Part shown: piece by piece, positions 1,379 to 10,965 of the stretch | How the letters are laid out: each line of letters starts with the position of its first letter | Position numbering within the stretch: the stretch's first letter is position 1 | Origin: a virus | Reading direction: 5' to 3' (one strand) | Length of the DNA stretch: 10,965 nt | UHGV virus genome: UHGV-1359962 | Translations under genes and position numbers: made by a program | Notes under the pieces: model-generated | Told to the model about the DNA's origin: nothing | Database searches by the model: none | The model's input: only the letters and a program-made list of their open reading frames with translations

Positions 1379-2167
1379 TCAATATCTCTTGTTCGGATTC
1401 ACTGAGTACTTTTTAAGCTTTGAAGCTACCCGACCAGCGTTACTATTAGCATTGGTGACGTTGGTTTTTTCAGCTTCTGTTAAGTCTGAATAGTCCAGCT
1501 TCCAAGCCTTATTACATTTAATCTGAGCATCGAGAATATCATTTCTGATAGCTGGAGCGTAACCGGATACATCGCTAATATCCATTAGCTCTTTGCACGA
1601 TAGCATAGGCGCGTTATTGCGTTCAGTGGTCACGTTACCTGCATTCTTCTTACTGGTCACACCACCGTCATTAGTGGTAGCCGTTTTGCCAGTGGCAGCC
1701 GAAATATCAGTTTGCCCCACAATAGCTTTAAAGTTAATTTCCTGAAAAGTTAGCTGGATTCTCAGGCCGTTTGAAATACCAACATCTTTTGAGGCTTTAA
1801 AGCTCGTAATAATGGAATCATCAATTTTAATCCCATCTTTACAGATGACAGAAATAATCTGCTTCTGGTCACGCCAGTTTTCAAGGGTTTCGATGAAGTT
1901 TTCTACTAATTGACCCTGACGAGTTAATAATAAGCTTCCTTCATAGCCAACTACAACGACACCACTAATAGTGATTGTTCTGGGTGCTCTTTGCACATTA
2001 TCTGTGACAGTTTGCCCTGATTGCATGTTCTGTGTAGTCACCTGCATAGGACTATCAAATTCCATGTTTTCAGTTGCTGATAAGGTTAAGAAGGCATCTA
2101 CATTATCTCTTAAGTGGAAATAGATGCCATCTTTGCCACTGTAACGAATCTGATTAGAGTAAATCAT
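1379..2167 (-). CDS. Hypothetical protein, 262 aa, immediately downstream of the tape-measure-like gene; tail-associated role is possible only by position
   Basis: ATG at 2167-2165 preceded by AAGGAG (complement of 2174-2179) with 6-nt spacing. The ORF-track start at 2188 is a TTG and is less likely. Stop TGA at 1381-1379. No recognisable domain; the sequence has a hydrophobic beta-like stretch ([18 protein letters not shown]) and a Thr/Asn/Gly-rich segment. Confidence 0.6.
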
Positions 2168-2242
2168 TAAATTCTCCTTTGATTTCAAAGGCTTAGTGTA
2201 TTTTAATCATTTTTAACCAAGCCTTTGATATATAAGTATTTT

Positions 2243-2289
2243 CTCTGTTAAGCGTGAGCTACGTAAATTCTATTTTTCAGTGCGGGTAT
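2243..2289. promoter_or_regulatory. Conserved ~45-bp element (CTCTGTTAAGCGTGAGCTACGTAAA ... GGGTAT), copy upstream of the 262-aa gene
   Basis: 25-nt block identical to 4519-4543, followed by a similar ATTTTT..GGGTAT tail. Lies in the 135-bp gap between the TMP-like gene stop (2324) and the 262-aa gene start (2167). Confidence 0.45.
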
Positions 2290-2323
2290 TAACTTTGCTT
2301 TATTCACGTAGAACACCGTTAAA

Positions 2324-4504
2324 TCAATCATCTTCTGGGAATGATGAACTTAATAACGTAGCTTCTGCATATTGGTCGTAGATATTACTGCTAAAGGTCA
2401 TAAAGCTGGTTTCATCTGGTTTAATGGCAACTTCACCACCAAGTGAAACTTTCACAGGCTCCTGAATACGCTTACTTAAAGCAGAGATTTCATCCCTCAG
2501 ACCCTGAATATCTGCACTCGTTAATGATGCATCTTGTTTCATGGTAATTAATTCTGGATGATTGAATCTTGCAATATTCATTGTGGCATTGTTAAACAAT
2601 TCACCCATTGAACTAAAAATCCTGCCCCATCCTTCGTTAATCATATTCGGTTTATTAGGGTCACCAGAATACACAGGATTAAAGTCACTACCCACACCTA
2701 CCCCAGATGGATGCATATTAGCGTTTTTGACTACTTCCTGATTCATAAAATCCAGTGCTTTCTTCAATGCATATAAACCAAGAGTGACACCTCTGATTTG
2801 TGGAATCATTGAAGCTAATGCTAACGCTGTTTCATAACCGTCATCAGCATAACCAATTGCAAGAGCACTACCTACACCACCAGCTACACCTTTCAGTTTT
2901 CCACCACCTTTACCAGTAGCTACCTGACCAGCCACCTGATTAGCTCTTGTACCTAACGTTGTGATTGCTCTTGTCAGGTTCATAACCCCTGTAGTAGCAC
3001 TGAATAGTGTCTTTGCAGATAACGCTATAGCAAGACCTTTGACAAAATTGATAAAACCATCACCGACTTCATCAAGTAGTTTTCGTTTAGTGTCATCAAG
3101 GCTGTAATAGAACTTCTTAGTCTGTAGAATCCAGCCTTCAAGGTGATTGTTAAAGATACGGATGTCATCTACACCAGCTTTAAGCATGTCGATAAGTCCA
3201 CCGATAGCATCACCAGCGATAGAAGAACTCATACCCATTTCACTAAGCAGGTTACTCAGGCTGGATAAGAAGCCGTTTAGCTCATCCTGTGAACCTGAGA
3301 AGATTTTCACCATCGTATCATCCCAGTTGTTAGCCAGTTTCCCTAAAGCTGTCTGAGTGCTCTTAGCGACTTCAGCCCAGCCACCCGCTTTATCAATCAT
3401 CAAGCCCATCTGTTTAGCGACTTTAGGGAGAGTATCACTACTTAAAATCTTCCCGTTTTTCATGGCTGCATCAAGCTCTGTAGCAGTCATACCCAGTGCT
3501 TCAGCGAATAGCTTAAATGCACCAGCCATACGGTCACCTAACTGTCCACGAAGCTCTTCAGCCTGAATCTTGCCCTTAGAAGCCATCTGCTCAAAAGCTT
3601 TCAAAATGCCGTTTAGCTCGTCGTTAGAAAGCCCCATTAAGCGACTCATAGCCGTTGCATTACCAAATAGTTCCTGTGTCTGTTCCTGTGACATAGAACC
3701 CTGAGCACCTGCTGCAAACTTAGCGTAGCTTGACAGCCCTTCAGAGATATTAAGACCTGTCTTGTCTGCTAAATTTCGAATAAATACCTCAGCCTCAGAT
3801 GCTTTATCACCAAGTACAAACTTAGCGGCTCTCTGTGCGGAATCTCGTTTAAGACCTGCATTCATAATGGCCTTGTAAGCGTTAAGAGCACCCATCACAG
3901 AGTAAAATGCACCAGATAATTTAATTGCATTGCTTGCAAGATTATTAAATGCGTCGCTTGTATTATTAATGCTGGTGGTCTTTGTCTGTGACCTGAGTTT
4001 ATTCAACGTTTCACGAAGAGATTGATTTAATTTTGCAAGTTCAGCGTTAAACTTTTCACTTCCAATATTACCAGCCTTGCCGCTTAAACTGTAATATTGT
4101 GCTTTAAACATTTTAGCCATCAGCGGATTAATATCACCAAGCTTAGACATATTCACACTATGCGCTGCTGTGATTGCTCTGTTTCCGCTAATTCGTGGCT
4201 GTCTTGGTTGTTTTGGAGGATTGATAACGTCATTAACCTGACTTGTGAAACGGAAAACTCTAGTGTTTTTTGCTCTAGCTTCCAGACGGTCAAAGGTCTT
4301 ATTAAACTTCCTTTCAAGTTGCCCTAAAGAACTTGTCAGATTGCTGTCAAGTTGCTTGGTATCGACCTTAAACGCTCTATTCAAATTACGTTCAATTCTT
4401 TGTGCTGACTGCAAAGCTGCCTTTTCAACTCTTTGCAAGCCCTTAATAACGTTCTCGCTGAAGCCTAGCTCAACGATAAAACTATCAACTTTAAATTGTG
4501 CCAT
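2324..4504 (-). CDS. Phage tail tape-measure-like protein, 726 aa
   Basis: Long ORF, ATG at 4504-4502, stop TGA at 2326-2324. Predicted helical N-terminal half. The segment MSRLMGLSNDELNGILKAFEQMASKGKIQAEELRGQLGDRMAGAFKLFAEALGMTATELDAAMKNGKILSSDTLPKVAKQM resembles the conserved tape-measure domain as I recall it, and Gly-rich hydrophobic stretches (GQVATGKGGGKLKGVAGGVGSALAIGYADDG) are typical of TMPs. The SD-like GAGGTG lies 11 nt upstream of the ATG, so the exact start is uncertain. Confidence 0.75.
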   Translation of the reverse strand: MAQFKVDSFIVELGFSENVIKGLQRVEKAALQSAQRIERNLNRAFKVDTKQLDSNLTSSLGQLERKFNKTFDRLEARAKNTRVFRFTSQVNDVINPPKQPRQPRISGNRAITAAHSVNMSKLGDINPLMAKMFKAQYYSLSGKAGNIGSEKFNAELAKLNQSLRETLNKLRSQTKTTSINNTSDAFNNLASNAIKLSGAFYSVMGALNAYKAIMNAGLKRDSAQRAAKFVLGDKASEAEVFIRNLADKTGLNISEGLSSYAKFAAGAQGSMSQEQTQELFGNATAMSRLMGLSNDELNGILKAFEQMASKGKIQAEELRGQLGDRMAGAFKLFAEALGMTATELDAAMKNGKILSSDTLPKVAKQMGLMIDKAGGWAEVAKSTQTALGKLANNWDDTMVKIFSGSQDELNGFLSSLSNLLSEMGMSSSIAGDAIGGLIDMLKAGVDDIRIFNNHLEGWILQTKKFYYSLDDTKRKLLDEVGDGFINFVKGLAIALSAKTLFSATTGVMNLTRAITTLGTRANQVAGQVATGKGGGKLKGVAGGVGSALAIGYADDGYETALALASMIPQIRGVTLGLYALKKALDFMNQEVVKNANMHPSGVGVGSDFNPVYSGDPNKPNMINEGWGRIFSSMGELFNNATMNIARFNHPELITMKQDASLTSADIQGLRDEISALSKRIQEPVKVSLGGEVAIKPDETSFMTFSSNIYDQYAEATLLSSSFPEDD

Positions 4505-5629: not shown

Positions 5630-5877
5630 TAATATTTTCCTCTTCTAAGATAATTTATGTTTCAGTTTTTAAAAAGCACACCTGACAGCCTACGAACTTA
5701 GAAGAGACTTAAAAGCGTTTGCCAAGTATGCTTTTTAAAAGCTGAAAAAAGCCCTAAACATAGGTGATTCGGATATTCATGGAATCATCCTCATCTGTGA
5801 AGGGCTTTGAAGGTTTGCTTTAACGTTAACGAAGTTTCAGGAAAAACTTTCTTTAAAAGCTCTGTTTAAAAACTCTT

Positions 5878-5907
5878 AAAGAAAACGCCCTAATCATGAG
5901 TTAGGGC
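5878..5907 (-). terminator. Rho-independent terminator (minus strand) downstream of the small-gene operon
   Basis: 7-bp stem GCCCTAA (5887-5893) / TTAGGGC (5901-5907) with a 7-nt loop. On the minus strand the hairpin is followed by GTTTTCTTT (complement of 5886-5878). Confidence 0.5.
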
Positions 5908-6208
5908 AAAGCTGTAAGGGTTCAATAATGAATGATTAAGCACTTTTTGATATATAGCCTATCTAGTGGGCTAAATAGGCCATGTAGCGAAAAGCATTGC
6001 ACCTTTCAGAATAACTATCCCTAGATGTAGATGGAATTGTTGAAAGAAATAAGAGAGAATTGCTCTCCCATACTTAAAATTATGGCATATTTAAGGTTAT
6101 TTGTCAACAGCTTTTTAACAGATTGGTAACATTAATTCTTATTTACCGTGTTACCTACCCAGCAACCAACAAATAAACCCAAAGCTGTCCAAGCAATTAT
6201 TAAGCCCA

Positions 6209-8023: not shown

Positions 8024-8071
8024 TCATAAGCCAGTCCTTATAATTGTTAATTCTCTGTTAACTTATATACA

Positions 8072-8100
8072 ATACTAGCATTTTCAAAGACTAATGTCAA
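8072..8100 (-). promoter_or_regulatory. Candidate sigma70-type promoter for the minus-strand operon
   Basis: On the minus strand: -35 TTGACA (complement of 8100-8095), 17-nt spacer, -10 TAGTAT (complement of 8077-8072). Confidence 0.5.
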
Positions 8101-8107
8101 GCATTTT

Positions 8108-8137
8108 TTAACATTTCATTAACATCTGTGGTATAAT
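8108..8137 (+). promoter_or_regulatory. Candidate plus-strand promoter with extended -10, divergent from the operon promoter
   Basis: -35-like TTAACA (8108-8113), 18-nt spacer, TG at 8129-8130 and -10 TATAAT at 8132-8137 (TGgTATAAT). Confidence 0.55.
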
Positions 8138-8219
8138 GGTTTTATGGGGAGAGTAAAATATGAGGCGTGGCTATGAGGTATCAACTATCGAGAATGGCCG
8201 CATGGTTATTGCATTGCAC

Positions 8220-8318
8220 ACAGACCTCTTCAATCGCTCTGTAACGAGTTAAATGGCCTCTTCAGGTCAACTCATAAGGTCAGGTACTTTTTGTGTCAGA
8301 ATGCGATTGAGAGCGTCT
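8220..8318. repeat. Copy 2 of the paired element, within the leader of the membrane-protein gene
   Basis: Blocks at 8230-8248 and 8298-8318 are identical to copy 1. Located between the plus-strand promoter and the ATG at 8333. Confidence 0.6.
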
Positions 8319-8332
8319 TACAAGGAAATTTA

Positions 8333-8521
8333 ATGGTAAATCTCCCTCCTGAACTGGGGTCACCTGATGTATGGGCTGGTGGAGGTGTTGGACTTATTGC
8401 GGGTCTGCTGCTTCGCTATTTCATCGTCAGAGTGTTTATCGTGTTCAGATTGTTTGGTCGTGAATGGTCGTTTGACCTCAAGGACAGGACCAGAACAGAC
8501 AACCACACAGAACCCCGCTAA
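8333..8521 (+). CDS. Small membrane protein, 62 aa, one predicted transmembrane helix
   Basis: ATG at 8333 with AAGGA 6 nt upstream; stop TAA at 8519-8521. Translation MVNLPPELGSPDVWAGGGVGLIAGLLLRYFIVRVFIVFRLFGREWSFDLKDRTRTDNHTEPR has one hydrophobic helix followed by a charged C-terminus. Preferred over the alternative frames at 8291 and 8367 because of the RBS and protein-like composition. Confidence 0.5.
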   Translation: MVNLPPELGSPDVWAGGGVGLIAGLLLRYFIVRVFIVFRLFGREWSFDLKDRTRTDNHTEPR

Positions 8522-8534
8522 ACTCCCTTCAAAA

Positions 8535-8575
8535 CCCCTATACCATCTCGTACAGGGGTATCTTTAGCATTTTGT
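8535..8575 (+). terminator. Candidate terminator after the membrane-protein gene
   Basis: Stem CCCCTATAC (8535-8543) / GTACAGGGG (8550-8558) with one mismatch, then a T-rich tail TATCTTTAGCATTTTGTG. Confidence 0.35.
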
Positions 8576-8635
8576 GCTATCTATTAAAAAACGGCTTGAC
8601 AGAACCGGAAAGCTGTATCTATCAAGTATTCACCT

Positions 8636-8816
8636 CTCTGACAGTAATTTCTAAAAGTTCTTATTTTTCAATGAGTTGTAATTAGCCAATATAAAGGACT
8701 GACAAGACCCTTCACAATTAACTCTGTAACCTTAACAGTAATTTCTAAAAATGCTTATTTTTCAATAAGTTGTAATCACCCAATATATAAGACTGTCCAG
8801 TACCTTCACAGATAAC
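8636..8816. repeat. Two tandem direct repeat units of about 86 and 95 bp
   Basis: Unit 1 (8636-8721) and unit 2 (8722-8816) align along their length. Shared blocks include CAGTAATTTCTAAAA, CTTATTTTTCAAT, AGTTGTAAT and GACTG.C.AG..CCTTCACA..TAAC. Confidence 0.7.
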
Positions 8817-9603
8817 TTCAAGCCCTCTTAACCGCCCCACTAATCGGGAGAAGAGCGATAACCCCAGAGAGGGAAGCTCCCTTCTTAATCGGCCTCCTAA
8901 CCAGTCTTTACAAACCTTGTTCAAGGTAATCACAATAGTTTTTCTTCCCTCGGTTTCCTGTGTTCCTCGGTTTATCTATTGAGACTTGAAAGACCTCTGT
9001 AAGTGCTCTCTTAGCGAGAGAAAAATCATTCATAGTGACCCCAAGCGAAGTGCCCCTCTAAAAAGATTTTTTAGCTATTTTGCTTAAAACCATATCAAAC
9101 GATACATTTTATTGATTTAGGTCAAAGACAAAAACATTGACAAAATGGTATGATTGTTCACATGACCTTACTTAACAGATTCTTAAGAGCTTTGAAACGA
9201 CCTACTTAACAAGGTCACTACCTCTGGTCTTATCGTTCCCTTCTTTCTAGGTAGTCATCTGTTAAGAACTTTTCAGTTTTATTCTTAAGATAATTGTTAA
9301 GATGATACTCTCCCTTCGGGTTATATCGTATCTCTTCCCCCGTTAAACACTCCTTCCTAACAACTTCATAGTTATCTGTCAAGTACCTTTGAAGATTCTA
9401 TCAAGACCTCTAAATCTGACCTGATATAGATGCTGTGAAGGCATGTTCTCTAGGTCTGTGTAGCTTACTTAGTGGGAAGAGAGGGTGATACATGAGAAAG
9501 AACCCCTCCTACTTAAAAGAATTATTTGACATTATTGTGATGGTTATTTAAGATGCAACTGTACAGACACCTTCATCGGTTTCTCTACACCTTCCTATGG
9601 CTT

Positions 9604-9664
9604 GGTCTGGCTAGGTAGGGTGGGGTCTGGTTAGGTAAGGTGGGGTATGGTTAAGTGTGGGTGG
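9604..9664. repeat. Three tandem ~20-bp iterons
   Basis: GGTCTGGCTAGGTAGGGTGG (9604-9623), GGTCTGGTTAGGTAAGGTGG (9624-9643), GGTATGGTTAAGTGTGGGTGG (9644-9664). Confidence 0.75.
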
Positions 9665-9696
9665 ATTGTCGTAGCCACGTTAAAAATCGACTTATA

Positions 9697-9720
9697 GGGA
9701 CTCTTTCGGGAGTCCTTTTT
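9697..9720 (+). terminator. Rho-independent-type terminator hairpin with UUCG loop
   Basis: GGACTCT (9698-9704) pairs with GGAGTCC (9709-9715) around the loop TTCG (9705-9708), followed by TTTTT (9716-9720). Confidence 0.55.
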
Positions 9721-10791
9721 AGTTTGTATAAAATCTGTACAGTAACTTTTCAGATTCTGAAAATTTTTATAAAAAAATAATCAGGCCTCTTCTAAGTCTC
9801 TTCAACCAAATCTTTCAAAAATATCTACACTCAATTGATGGCTGTTAAGTACCCCAGATTCACGATATAGCACCCCCTTTGCAAAAGCAGTTAAAATATC
9901 TATAACCAACTATTGACTTTCTTCATAGCATCTGTTAAGTCCACCTCAAGAAACCTTCATCACACTTCAAAGCATCTATCAAGAAGGTTTAACCTATCAA
10001 TAGCTGTAACATTTTGTAGTTCTGTGAAGTCCTATCCAGTTTTCTCTGTAACAGACACAAACTTCTGCGACCTTATGTATCAATGACTTAGAATACATGC
10101 TCTCAAGGTTCTGTATAGTCTCTTATCTTCAAATACACAAAACCCTTATAAATCAGTACTGATACGTATACAGTTCGTTTTTAACATAATGGCTGTTTTA
10201 CGCACTAATCGTGTTCTACATGAAATCTGTATAGATATTAAGGTGTCTGTAAGTGATTTTTTAAGAAGGGACTACGAAGATTTGACAAGGTAACTATGAG
10301 GTTGATTCCTAGAACAACCGAATCAACTATAACCATCACTTTTCAATATTCACGCAGGATATCGTTAAGTTTCTTGATAGTTACACCATGTGACCAACTG
10401 CATAGATAGCGTTATATACTCCTGTATATATCACTTTTCTAGGAGTCTGGAGAGGGACGACTAACACGATACAGTTTACCCTGAAAAGAGACTTCACAGA
10501 TTCTTTATATATTTCAATAAGTTATGCTAAAAAGAGACTATACCGATACTGCATAGAATCTGTGTAAAACTGCTTAGATACTTGGGAAAATGCCTTTAAA
10601 TTGCATAGTCATAGGGGTTGGAACAAGCCCAACTTCACCTGATATTGTCCTGTAATTAACAGGTTTCTTAGAAAACCGAATAGACTTCATTCAAGGGTCA
10701 TTGTATTGTAGCTATTCGGCATTGTAGCATTAGCCATAACGTTTATAAGTTCATCTTTAAATGATAATCAATTGCATGGGAGTTTATCACC

Positions 10792-10965
10792 ATGAGACAC
10801 GTAATTACATACCTTCGGTACAGTTCAGCCATACAAGGCGCTGAAGGTGCTGATTCAACCAGACGACAAAATGAGCTATTCAAACAGTGGTTAAGGAAGA
10901 ATAGCGATGCTCAGGTAGTTGCGTCTTTCAGTGATGAAGGGTTGAGTGGTTACAAAGGTAAGCAC
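10792..10965 (+). CDS. Serine recombinase N-terminal catalytic segment (58 codons); 3' end runs off the window end; probably the same gene as 1-1347
   Basis: ATG at 10792 preceded by GGGAG (10779-10783). Translation MRHVITYLRYSSAIQGAEGADSTRRQNELFKQWLRKNSDAQVVASFSDEGLSGYKGKH carries the serine-recombinase N-terminal signature (Y-x-R-x-SS-x-x-Q with the presumed catalytic Ser, later D-x-G-x-SG). The frame ends exactly on a codon boundary at 10965. Confidence 0.7.
   Translation, partial: MRHVITYLRYSSAIQGAEGADSTRRQNELFKQWLRKNSDAQVVASFSDEGLSGYKGKH

What the first reader, a model, noticed from the sequence alone, without database searches (positions are those of the whole stretch)
8568..10791. About 2.2 kb of ORF-free, repeat-dense DNA upstream of the recombinase gene
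Roughly one fifth of the element has no protein-like ORF with a ribosome-binding site, yet it is highly structured: tandem ~90-bp units, three iterons, a GC-rich island, hairpins, and many CTGTTAAG-type boxes. Candidate roles are not mutually exclusive: replication origin, packaging (pac or cos) region, attP, or one or more large structured noncoding RNAs of the kind found in phage-related DNA.
Basis: partly seen in the sequence, partly recalled or inferred. Interest (0 to 1): 0.7.

Follow-up and report, generated by a model that had tools for sequence, protein, structure and literature searches.

The report
Helper-phage-mimicking non-coding arm of a satellite
The gene-free fifth of this small E. 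coli mobile island is real: it holds the island's integration site, stretches copied from the genome-end region of Felix O1-type phages, and a small RNA gene of an undescribed class that in those phages sits next to a CRISPR-type (Cas7-like) RNA-binding protein gene.

Summary
Window 8568-10791 has no ORF longer than chance under any genetic code tried, and its repeats and boxes are far above chance. The window is the circular form of an ~11-kb E. coli island. It has a serine recombinase and tape-measure and Dit genes related to Felix O1-like phages, and related sequence occurs in about 10% of complete E. coli genomes. It looks like an undescribed satellite of Felixounavirus.

The ORF-free arm is a patchwork:
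- attP core TCAAGGGTCATTG at 10691-10703.
- Two blocks (9152-9264 and 9724-9917) homologous to the helper's ORF-free, box-dense region that carries its ~580-bp direct terminal repeat. The same CTKWWMAG/CTGTTAAG boxes are about 10-fold enriched in both.
- The "iterons/GC island" are really a ~165-nt RNA gene (9526-9725). It has a sigma-70 promoter, 12-13 GGYNN pentamers, a covarying H-type pseudoknot and a terminator. It is homologous to tandem modules in the helper's replication-gene cluster.
- Island-specific repeats: the 94-bp tandem units and TTTCAATRAGTT x3.

The parts
8072..8137 (.). Divergent sigma-70 promoters. The minus-strand one (TTGACA-17-TAGTAT, 8100-8072) serves the 185-aa gene operon. 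The plus-strand one (TTAACA-18-TATAAT with TG, 8108-8137) points into the non-coding arm.
   Evidence: 89-94% conserved among islands
8333..8521 (+). Conserved small ORF of 62 aa with a predicted transmembrane segment. It lies just left of the finding and is annotated as a hypothetical protein in other copies.
   Evidence: conservative substitutions in L003; PGAP CDS in L014, L016, L018
8641..8817 (+). Two tandem 94-bp units, each carrying the island-specific motif TTTCAATRAGTT. A third copy of the motif is at 10512. Function unknown; it is a candidate binding array for an island protein.
   Evidence: 92-95% conserved among islands; motif absent from the helper genome
9152..9264 (-). Block homologous to the interior of the helper's direct terminal repeat (core GGTCACTAcCTCT..TCTTATCGTTCCCTT), flanked by CTTAACAG/CTGTTAAG boxes.
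   Evidence: blastn E 3e-11 to the Pr103Blw DTR; nhmmer E 1.8e-8 with a 6-phage junction profile; found in 10 of 12 islands
9526..9554 (+). Sigma-70 promoter of the small RNA (TTGACA-17-TAAGAT).
   Evidence: Three different promoter sequences occupy the same position in different islands, and all are good sigma-70 matches.
9599..9663 (+).
   Evidence: 81% identical to module C of Felixounavirus. Unit number and spacer bases vary among copies, while GGY is kept.
9661..9691 (+). H-type pseudoknot. S1 is GTGG (9661-9664) paired with CCAC (9675-9678). S2 is GTCG (9668-9671) paired with CGAC (9688-9691). The linker GTTAAAAAT is A-rich.
   Evidence: both stems are 100% paired in 30 distinct copies and 7 of 8 core pairs change on both sides (covariation 0.46 vs 0.18 shuffled, 0/500); extraction without any pairing criterion gives the same result.
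9696..9725 (+). Intrinsic terminator of the small RNA (GGGACTC-TTTC-GGGAGTCC followed by a T run).
   Evidence: stem kept, with compensatory variants, in L007 and L011
9724..9917 (-). Block colinear (reverse orientation) with the helper region that spans the right boundary of its terminal repeat and about 110-190 bp beyond it. The boundary sequence itself is not conserved.
   Evidence: nhmmer E 2.7e-10; blastn patches 9735-9774 and 9868-9917; longer matches in other islands, E 1e-20 to 1e-23; boundary not found
9920..10325 (.). Variable segment. In other islands, here and near ~9000-9124, accessory genes are inserted or replace the sequence (Dam-type methyltransferase, HTH protein, small resolvase-type recombinase).
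10296..10335 (+). Small insertion-like element ATGAGG..hairpin..CCGAATCAACTAT. Another copy is at 5794-5760 (-), and an empty site is at about 8172. One copy lies just right of the helper VpaE1 terminal repeat.
10691..10703 (+). attP crossover core TCAAGGGTCATTG.
   Evidence: the island sequence switches to chromosome sequence on either side of this core at attL and attR of L003. The reverse complement contains the tonB start codon.
10704..10791 (+). Leader and promoter region of the serine recombinase gene, which starts at 10792 and continues at window position 1.
   Evidence: the joined ORF is 506 aa and 97% identical to the recombinase of L003

Best explanation
The ORF-free arm (8024-10791) is the cis-acting and RNA-coding 'hijack' arm of a small integrative satellite of Felix O1-like (Ounavirinae) phages.

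Shown:
- The window is the circular form of an island that integrates through a large serine recombinase at the 13-bp core 10691-10703.
- The island has no recognisable replication, capsid or terminase gene.
- Its arm contains two conserved blocks, and a roughly ten-fold excess of CTKWWMAG boxes, that are homologous to the helper's own ORF-free region around its ~580-bp direct terminal repeat.
- It contains a promoter-to-terminator small RNA gene (9526-9725) homologous to tandem 'pentamer array + pseudoknot' modules of the helper.

Inferred:
- After helper infection and excision, the terminal-repeat-like blocks and boxes make satellite DNA a substrate for the helper's DTR-type packaging machinery. 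Packaging may be as a concatemer, since 8 x 10,965 = 87.7 kb, about one helper genome.
- The small RNA is a ligand for a helper factor, most plausibly the Cas7-like RAMP protein encoded next to the corresponding helper modules. A protein polymerising on the GGY-every-5-nt array would explain why the triplet is kept while spacers and unit number drift. Through this RNA the satellite would either exploit or titrate that factor.
- The 94-bp units and the TTTCAATRAGTT motifs are island-specific and probably bind an island protein.
For: Island and helper link:
- Related sequence occurs in 549 of 5,426 complete E. coli genomes (only 3 cover at least 80% of the window), and the ORF-free arm matches in 554.
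- The Dit gene is up to 96% and parts of the TMP gene about 90% nt-identical to Felixounavirus.
- No replication, capsid or terminase family was found in any island protein.
- attL/attR comparison defines the core.

Helper terminal-repeat region:
- The helper has a 1.7-kb ORF-free, box-dense region containing the DTR.
- DTR ends were shown experimentally or by PhageTerm (PMC4837284, PMC8303462).
- Homology of window 9152-9264 and 9724-9917 to this region: E 3e-11 / 1.8e-8 and 2.7e-10, repeated in most islands.
- These blocks are among the best-conserved parts of the arm.
- Box enrichment: 11 vs 1.1 in the arm, 18 vs 1.3 in the helper junction.

Small RNA:
- Promoter function is kept through three different promoter sequences; the terminator is present.
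- Pseudoknot covariation; the GGYNN profile is kept over 407 units.
- In IMG/VR the module occurs only in phage-size contigs of roughly 80-94 kb and in smaller island-bearing contigs of 25-54 kb.

RAMP link:
- In three distant gp091 homologue contexts, tandem pentamer-array modules again flank the gene.

Precedent: a 1/8-size satellite of a virulent phage packaged as an 8-mer (PICMI, PMC10803314).
Against: - Nothing was measured: no data on induction, excision, replication, packaging or transcription.
- The helper's exact DTR boundary sequences, which are 93-100% conserved among helpers, are not found in the window above chance.
- The helper-like blocks are not colinear with one another: the DTR-interior block lies on the 'wrong' side of the boundary block.
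- Box density in the arm (4.9/kb) is well below that of the helper DTR (17/kb), and the boxes lack the helper's strand bias.
- Felix O1 itself lacks gp091 yet keeps a class-D module, so the RAMP-RNA pairing is not obligatory.
- No RNA-protein contact was tested, and Cas7 proteins bind RNA with 6-nt, not 5-nt, periodicity.
- The attP junction was not found in the virome or metagenome collections. Another island copy is 11.3 kb, so the 1/8 ratio is not exact.
Confidence: 0.55

Rival explanations
1. The pentamer-array RNA module is a transcription-primed replication origin of the helper, copied by the satellite. The sigma-70 promoter would fire a G-rich transcript that forms a stable R-loop on the C-rich template. 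The helper's T7-like polymerase and primase-helicase would then use it, allowing a satellite with no replication genes to be replicated.
For: - The island has no replication protein.
- The helper modules lie inside the replication-gene cluster between DNA ligase and DHFR, downstream of a strong sigma-70 promoter.
- The array is 51% G and 6% C.
- Established precedents for RNA-primed origins, from my own knowledge: T7 phi1.1A/B, T4 oriF/oriG, ColE1 RNA II.
- TGGTC and GGGTC, the T7-type primase sites, occur in the array (seen directly in the sequence).
Against: - The modules travel with a RAMP-like gene, not with replication genes, in actinophage and prophage contexts. One of these sets lies downstream of the gene pair.
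- 3 to 5 tandem copies per locus are odd for an origin.
- Strict conservation of GGY with free spacers, together with a covarying pseudoknot, fits protein recognition of an RNA better than hybrid stability.
- GGTC occurs about as often as expected in GGTNN units.
Confidence: 0.15
2. The arm is mainly decaying phage-derived DNA plus an accessory-gene landing pad. In this view the island is a degraded, miniaturised Felix O1-like genome, and the helper-like patches, boxes and RNA module are relics with no present cis function. Only attP and the promoters are functional.
For: - The helper-like patches are short, 75-83% identical, rearranged, and lack the DTR boundaries.
- The arm is a hotspot where methyltransferase, HTH and resolvase genes are inserted in other islands.
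- Helper-like promoter, terminator and box 'grammar' also occurs in the island's other intergenic regions.
Against: - The arm is kept end to end at about 80% identity in islands at different att sites. In one case (L012) it is 88% identical where the adjacent protein is only 61% identical.
- The helper-like blocks are conservation peaks at 87-94%.
- RNA promoter function is preserved through promoter replacement, and the pseudoknot and terminator keep pairing.
- No ORF remnants are detectable.
Confidence: 0.15
3. The boxes and helper-like blocks are regulatory, not packaging, sites. They would be binding sites or promoters for a helper-encoded transcription factor (for example the Cro/CI-type regulator in the same helper cluster, or a late-gene activator). 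Helper infection would then switch on the island operon carrying the TMP and Dit genes and/or excision.
For: - CTKWWMAG boxes also lie in island intergenic regions just upstream of the TMP and Dit genes (4521, 4566, 2245) and in the helper's divergent late-gene control region at 23219-23448.
- The box is a degenerate palindrome, as expected for a dimeric DNA-binding protein.
- Temporal control of Felix O1 transcription is unexplained (PMC3185647).
Against: - The highest box density in the helper, by a factor of about 10, is in and around the terminal repeat, where no genes start.
- The longer helper-like blocks (113 and 194 bp) are much larger than operator sites.
Confidence: 0.15

Closest known systems
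cis-acting packaging signals borrowed by phage satellites (P4 cos identical to P2 cos; SaPI/PICI pac sites; PICMI concatemer packaging)
   Same: A small integrative element without capsid or terminase genes carries non-coding DNA resembling the helper's packaging region. Its size is about 1/8 of the helper genome, as for PICMI115, which is packaged as an 8-mer (PMC10803314).
   Different: The helper is a virulent myovirus with exact direct terminal repeats, and no satellite of such a phage was found in the literature searched. The resemblance is patchy (75-83% over 40-190 bp) and omits the repeat boundaries. The island carries its own tape-measure and Dit genes and no replication genes.
Concatemer-junction / terminal-repeat regions of DTR phages (T7/T3-type), which are gene-free and flanked by arrays of short repeats (own knowledge)
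   Same: An ORF-free region packed with short, strand-biased repeated boxes around a short exact terminal repeat. This is what the Felixounavirus region 13530-15280 looks like.
   Different: The satellite copy is less dense, has boxes on both strands, and no terminal repeat has been defined for it.
crRNA-Cas7 (Csm3/Cmr4) backbone filaments of type III/I/IV/VII CRISPR effectors
   Different: The period is 5 nt, not 6. The variable stretch is itself a GGYNN repeat rather than a captured spacer. No cas1/cas2, Cas10, Cas5 or Cas6 is recognisable, and no CRISPR repeats are present. The satellite has the RNA only. Binding has not been tested.
TRAP-trp leader (11 G/UAG triplets spaced by 2-3 nt wrapped round an 11-mer ring) and the T4 gene 32 operator (pseudoknot plus unstructured repeat tract nucleating cooperative protein binding) (own knowledge)
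   Same: A conserved triplet with free 2-nt spacers repeated 8-19 times, and a pseudoknot adjoining the repeat tract, located in transcribed leaders upstream of genes in the helper.
   Different: The triplet is GGY. No TRAP-like or gp32-like protein was identified. In the satellite the RNA ends at a terminator and precedes no gene.
preQ1-I riboswitch aptamer (small H-type pseudoknot with an A-rich 3' linker)
   Same: Architecture: a short S1, a loop that pairs with sequence after an A-rich linker, and about 31 nt overall.
   Different: No match to the Rfam preQ1 models, even at E<=10 on a 300-nt query. S1 is 4 bp and the loop sequences differ between classes, which a ligand pocket would not tolerate.

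Membership tests
Phage satellite (generic: P4-like, PICI, PLE, PICMI) | Integrase or recombinase with att sites; excised circular form | tested here: met
   506-aa large serine recombinase spanning the window ends. A 13-bp core is shared by attL and attR, and the window is the attP-containing circle.
Phage satellite (generic: P4-like, PICI, PLE, PICMI) | Lacks capsid and terminase genes, with evident dependence on a specific helper | tested here: met
   Only TMP and Dit are structural, and both are related to Felixounavirus. Non-coding homology to the same phages. Dependence itself is inferred.
Phage satellite (generic: P4-like, PICI, PLE, PICMI) | Helper-induced excision, replication and packaging into helper virions | not testable with these tools
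   No experimental data. The attP junction is absent from the virome and metagenome collections.
PICI / P4-like / PLE specifically | Own replication module (primase-helicase or RepA plus adjacent ori) | tested here: not met
   No replication family in Pfam, PHROGs or NCBIfam for any island protein. The 185-aa protein has no solved relative by sequence.
Iteron-type replication origin | Direct repeats of ~17-22 bp next to an initiator gene and an AT-rich unwinding element | tested here: not met
   The '20-bp x 2.5' repeat is part of a 5-nt-period array lying between a promoter and a terminator. It is homologous to transcribed helper modules. No initiator gene was found.
Helper packaging site (pac/cos/DTR junction) | Sequence homology to the helper's terminase recognition or cleavage region | tested here: inconclusive
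   Homology to the DTR interior and to the right-flank region is significant. The conserved DTR boundary sequences are not detectable in the window. The helper's actual recognition site is unknown, and Felix O1 has no identified TerS (PMC3185647).
attP site of a serine recombinase | Short core at which island and chromosome sequences are exchanged, next to the recombinase gene | tested here: met
   TCAAGGGTCATTG at 10691-10703, 88 bp upstream of the recombinase start.
Large structured ncRNAs of phage-related DNA (GOLLD, ROOL, HEARO, OLE and the like) | Match to the family covariance model; several hundred nt of conserved multi-helix structure | tested here: not met
   No Rfam hit in the arm at E<=1 or at E<=10 around the RNA. 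The RNAalifold scan of 12 islands shows only local hairpins.
CRISPR array / crRNA | Identical 24-48-nt direct repeats separated by unique spacers; cas genes nearby | tested here: not met
   No such repeats in the window. There is only one module and the island has no cas-like gene. The resemblance concerns the helper's RAMP-fold neighbour only.
RAMP-associated pentamer-array RNA (class proposed here) | (GGYNN)n array of 8-19 units ending in GGYATGGG, followed by a conserved structured 3' element | tested here: met
   Window 9599-9691. The same layout occurs in helpers and, with a different 3' element (a tRNA-like arm or simple hairpin instead of the pseudoknot), in distant phages.
RAMP-associated pentamer-array RNA (class proposed here) | Adjacent gp091-type RAMP gene and its ~150-180-aa partner gene | tested here: not met
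   The island encodes neither: tblastn of island proteins against the helper finds only TMP and Dit. The window copy is an orphan RNA.

The most novel reading that the evidence does not exclude
The RNA at 9526-9725 belongs to an undescribed class of phage RNAs. These are tandem modules of a GGY-every-5-nt array plus a pseudoknot or tRNA-like end, and they would be the RNA partner of a stand-alone Cas7-like RAMP protein found from enterobacterial myoviruses to actinophages. On this reading, the E. coli satellite keeps an orphan copy under a host promoter. On infection it would load, divert or titrate the helper's RAMP protein, giving an RNA-based handle for sensing or interfering with its helper. 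The surrounding DNA would mimic the helper's terminal-repeat region so that the satellite is packaged as an 8-mer.
Probability: 0.3. Interest if true: 0.85.

Novelty: new variant of a known kind. Interest (0 to 1): 0.7.

Why it matters
1. It points to a widespread, apparently undescribed satellite of Felix O1-like phages. Related sequence is in about 10% of complete E. coli genomes, and homologues of an island protein occur in Salmonella and Shigella. These phages are workhorses of Salmonella and E. coli typing, biocontrol and therapy, so a resident element that hijacks or interferes with them would affect the outcome of phage treatment.

2. It gives a concrete, testable map of what a satellite needs in cis from a helper that packages by exact terminal repeats. 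No satellite precedent for that packaging mode turned up in the literature searched.

3. It uncovers a conserved RNA motif absent from Rfam, genetically linked to a stand-alone Cas7-fold protein in unrelated phage groups. If the two interact, this would be a CRISPR-independent use of the RAMP-RNA filament principle.

Tried and rejected
- Coding under alternative genetic codes: rejected, no ORF exceeds shuffles.
- tRNA or tmRNA genes in the window: none.
- Rfam families: none in the arm. The only window hit is a sub-threshold miRNA-like hairpin at 5660-5747, outside the finding.
- preQ1-I riboswitch identity for the pseudoknot: rejected.
- Large conserved RNA structure: not seen in a sliding RNAalifold scan. 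Several extreme z-scores there came from near-zero energies and were ignored.
- Pairing of the C/U-rich leader with the array (MFE fold, z -2.3): not conserved in islands with other leaders or arrays, so not adopted.
- Exact helper DTR boundaries in the islands: not above chance in the window. A first attempt with fuzzy regex timed out.
- Plasmid relatives: none.
- Species-representative genomes: only E. albertii had a close relative of the 185-aa protein.
- attP junction in IMG/VR and JGI metagenomes: not found.
- One IMG/VR scan was wasted on a pattern with one N too many.
- Function of island proteins: Pfam, PHROGs, NCBIfam and PDB sequence search gave nothing for the 185-, 92-, 71-, 118- and 234-aa proteins. 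The 1,089 homologue clusters of the 185-aa protein are all 'hypothetical'.
- Helper gp093 has too few homologues for a useful structure prediction.
- Literature: no paper in the library links a satellite to Felix O1-like phages or describes the box region or the pentamer modules.
Full report
**1. What the window is**

The window ends join in frame. Positions 10792-10965 plus 1-1347 encode a 506-aa large serine recombinase, 97% identical to that of an integrated island in E. coli ET120. So the 10,965-bp window is the circular, attP-containing form of a chromosomal island.

Sequence related to the window occurs in 549 of 5,426 complete E. coli genomes, always on chromosomes and never on plasmids. 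Only three genomes hold a copy covering at least 80% of the window. In ET120 the island sits between tonB and yciI. Other copies use other sites: a DUF72 gene next to yecN, mdtG, and others.

On the minus strand the island carries:
- a Dit-like baseplate gene and a tape-measure gene;
- an HNH endonuclease;
- six small genes of unknown function.

No replication, capsid or terminase family was detected.

The Dit gene is up to 96% nt-identical to Felix O1-like phages (genus Felixounavirus), and parts of the tape-measure gene are about 90% identical. At protein level against phage VpaE1, Dit is 73% identical and the tape-measure protein 33%. Homologues of the 185-aa protein occur in E. coli, Shigella, Salmonella and E. 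fergusonii, which are the hosts of these phages.

I found no paper that describes a satellite of these phages.

**2. The observation**

It is correct.
- The longest ORF in 8568-10791 is 62 aa. Shuffles give 73 +/- 16, and no stop-codon reassignment helps.
- NCBI's pipeline annotates nothing in the homologous 3.3 kb of ET120.
- The 94-bp tandem units at 8641-8817, the hairpins and the boxes are real. CTKWWMAG occurs 11 times against 1.1 expected, and CTGTNNAG on either strand 19 against 1.3.
- The arm is alignable end to end at about 80% identity in 12 islands from different att sites. It has conservation peaks, one variable segment (~9920-10325), and a second insertion point (~9000-9124) where other islands carry a methyltransferase, an HTH protein or a small resolvase.

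**3. attP**

Island sequence gives way to chromosome sequence on the two sides of TCAAGGGTCATTG (10691-10703) at attL and attR. The core overlaps the tonB start codon. Integration therefore replaces everything upstream of tonB with island DNA.

**4. The box-rich DNA mirrors the helper's terminal-repeat region**

*The helper region.* Felixounaviruses have a 1.7-kb ORF-free region between convergent gene blocks (VpaE1 13530-15280). The Pr103Blw record, which starts at the physical end, shows that this region contains the 581-bp direct terminal repeat. Exact repeats of about 600 bp were demonstrated for UAB_Phi87 with Bal31 nuclease and for Pr103Blw by PhageTerm (PMC4837284, PMC8303462).

The region is packed with CTTGTTAG, CTGTTAAG, TTGTTAAG, CTTAAAAG and CTATAAAG boxes. 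TGTTAR reaches 36 per kb in the repeat, almost all on one strand. CTKWWMAG occurs 18 times against 1.3 expected.

*Homology in the window.*
- 9190-9265 matches the interior of the repeat: 78% identity, E 3e-11.
- 9735-9774 matches a stretch 73-113 bp to the right of the repeat.
- 9868-9917 matches its last ~70 bp.
- With a profile of six helper junctions, nhmmer joins these into 9152-9264 (E 1.8e-8) and 9724-9917 (E 2.7e-10). All matches are in reverse orientation.
- Other islands have longer matches, E 1e-20 to 1e-23.
- These blocks coincide with conservation peaks of the arm.

*Against a simple copy.*
- The helper's boundary sequences, which are 93-100% conserved among helpers, are not found in the window above chance.
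- The two blocks are not colinear with each other.
- The satellite's boxes are less dense and lie on both strands.

*Reading.* I take this as a diverged, rearranged mimic of the helper's packaging and end-processing region. That function is inferred, not shown.

The size relation is 8 x 10,965 = 87,720 bp, against 87.8-88.4 kb for helpers. It recalls PICMI satellites, which are packaged as 8-mers (PMC10803314). Another copy, however, is 11.3 kb.

**5. The 'iterons' are part of a small RNA gene**

*Gene layout.* A sigma-70 promoter (TTGACA-17-TAAGAT, 9526-9554) is followed by:
- a ~40-nt leader;
- 12-13 pentamers GGYNN (9599-9663);
- a pseudoknot (9661-9691);
- an intrinsic terminator (9696-9725).

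Different islands have three unrelated promoter sequences at this spot, and all are good sigma-70 promoters.

*Homology to the helper.* The array and pseudoknot are 81% identical to a stretch of Felixounavirus DNA between the DNA ligase gene and gp091. There the phages carry one to five tandem modules of the same design, in two intergenic regions. The modules are read in the direction of the flanking genes and lie downstream of a strong promoter.

*The array.* Over 407 units in 32 distinct arrays the profile is:
- position 1: G 79%, never C;
- position 2: G (required by my extraction rule);
- position 3: T 88% or C 11%;
- positions 4-5: free.

Each array has 8-19 units.

*The pseudoknot.* The 3' element falls into five classes whose two stems differ in a compensatory way.
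- S1: GTGG/CCAC, GTAG/CTAC, AAGG/CCTT.
- S2: GTCG/CGAC, TGGTAG/CTACCA, TAATCG/CGATTA, AGTCTCA/TGAGACT, TGGCAG/CTGCCA.

On 30 distinct sequences both stem cores are 100% paired. Seven of the eight core pairs change on both sides. The covariation score is 0.46 against 0.18 for shuffles (0/500) and at most 0.145 for slid registers.

Because my first extraction required S1 to pair, I repeated it without any pairing rule. All 28 genuine variants pair fully, while the five spurious matches to the pattern show 0-2 of 4 pairs. The five classes amount to only about five independent events.

*Distribution and databases.* No Rfam family matches. In IMG/VR the element is found only in phage-size contigs of roughly 80-94 kb and in smaller island-bearing contigs of 25-54 kb.

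**6. A RAMP-fold neighbour**

The gene after the module class closest to the island's copy is helper gp091 (195 aa, no Pfam family). It has a confident AlphaFold model: pLDDT 93.5, pTM 0.85, built on 36 diverse sequences.

Structure searches return only RAMP proteins at the top:
- The first 50 Foldseek hits are Csm3, Cmr4, type VII Cas7 or Cas6.

The family's invariant C-terminal glycines fit the RAMP glycine-rich loop.

Homologues at 41-49% identity occur in unrelated phages and in a Rhodococcus genome. They are always followed by a 150-180-aa partner gene.

In all three distant contexts I read, tandem pentamer-array modules flank the gene pair:
- three (GGYNN)n modules upstream in a 72-kb phage contig;
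- three (GGCNN)n modules upstream in a skin-metagenome phage;
- five downstream in Rhodococcus.

In the two high-GC cases each module ends in GGCATGGG followed by a tRNA-like acceptor/T-arm hairpin. ARAGORN calls two of them aberrant tRNAs. None of the three contexts matches an Rfam family. The end-of-array signature GGYATGGG is shared with the E. coli phages.

Together this makes a functional RNA-protein pairing likely, although nothing was measured. Two points weigh against it:
- Felix O1 itself lacks gp091/gp092 but keeps one module.
- Cas7 filaments bind 6 nt per subunit, not 5.

The island encodes no RAMP-like protein, so its RNA is an orphan.

**7. Remaining parts**

- The 94-bp units and a third site at 10512 share TTTCAATRAGTT. 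This motif is absent from the helper, which suggests a site for an island protein.
- A divergent promoter pair at 8072-8137 and a conserved 62-aa membrane-protein ORF (8333-8521) lie just left of the finding.
- Small insertion-like elements (ATGAGG..CCGAATCAACTAT) occur in the arm, elsewhere in the island, and next to the VpaE1 terminal repeat.

**8. Verdict**

The region is a composite non-coding arm of a Felix O1-phage satellite. It comprises attP, helper-terminal-repeat-like DNA, an orphan pentamer-array/pseudoknot RNA gene, and island-specific repeats.

As a kind of thing, a satellite's cis-acting arm is known. What is new:
- the helper type;
- the way helper non-coding DNA is mimicked;
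- above all, the RNA class and its link to a stand-alone Cas7-fold protein.

How it works is inferred. The rivals remain open: an RNA-primed origin, regulatory sites, or relic DNA.

Noticed in passing
window 10691-10703; L003 5990-6015: The att core contains the tonB start codon (reverse complement CAATGACCCTTGA = ATG ACC CTT GA.., MTLD..). Integration therefore replaces the native tonB upstream region with island DNA, which offers TACAAT-type -10 elements. TonB expression or Fur control may be altered in carriers.
   Followed up: partly
whole window (10,965 bp): 8 x 10,965 = 87,720 bp, close to the unit genome of Felixounaviruses (87.8-88.4 kb). PICMI satellites of virulent vibriophages are 1/8 of their helper and are packaged as 8-mers (PMC10803314). 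Another island copy (L003) is about 11.3 kb, so the ratio is not exact.
   Followed up: partly
window 1379-4504 (-): The island carries its own tape-measure (726 aa) and Dit-like (269 aa) genes, in the helper's gene order. Dit is 73% identical to VpaE1's. The TMP is only 33% identical over 500 aa but has short patches of about 90% nt identity, suggesting ongoing recombination with helpers. A satellite-specified tail core is unusual.
   Followed up: partly
[not shown]
   Followed up: partly
window 10296-10335 (+), 5794-5760 (-), empty site ~8172; L003 14370-14425; L017/L018 between pseudoknot and terminator; VpaE1 14650-14680: Short (30-45 bp) hairpin-bearing insertions are bounded by ATGAGG(T) and CCGAATCA(A/C)CTAT. 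They are present or absent at identical sites in different islands, and one lies next to the helper's terminal repeat. They resemble a miniature mobile element shared by helper and satellite.
   Followed up: partly
window 5630-6208 (-): A second ORF-free stretch of 580 bp inside the island. It has a strong sigma-70 promoter (TTGACA-17-CATAAT at about 6107-6079), a 13-bp tandem repeat (5842-5876), and a long hairpin at 5660-5747 that gave the only (sub-threshold, miRNA-family) Rfam hit.
   Followed up: no
L004 (VpaE1) 13530-15280; L019/L020 (Pr103Blw ends): The helper's terminal-repeat region holds about 26 TGTTAR boxes on one strand, within and around a 581-bp DTR, and is 70-100% conserved from Felixounavirus to Mooglevirus. 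The papers I read do not discuss it, and Felix O1 has no recognisable small terminase.
   Followed up: partly
window 8333-8521 (+): A conserved 62-aa ORF with one hydrophobic helix, transcribed from the plus-strand promoter that faces the non-coding arm. It is annotated in several genomes as a hypothetical protein (WP_000247745 and relatives). Its function is unknown.
   Followed up: no
L059 2507-2911: The 134-aa 'gene' called on this metagenomic phage contig overlaps the (GGCNN)n RNA modules and is probably a false gene call.
   Followed up: no
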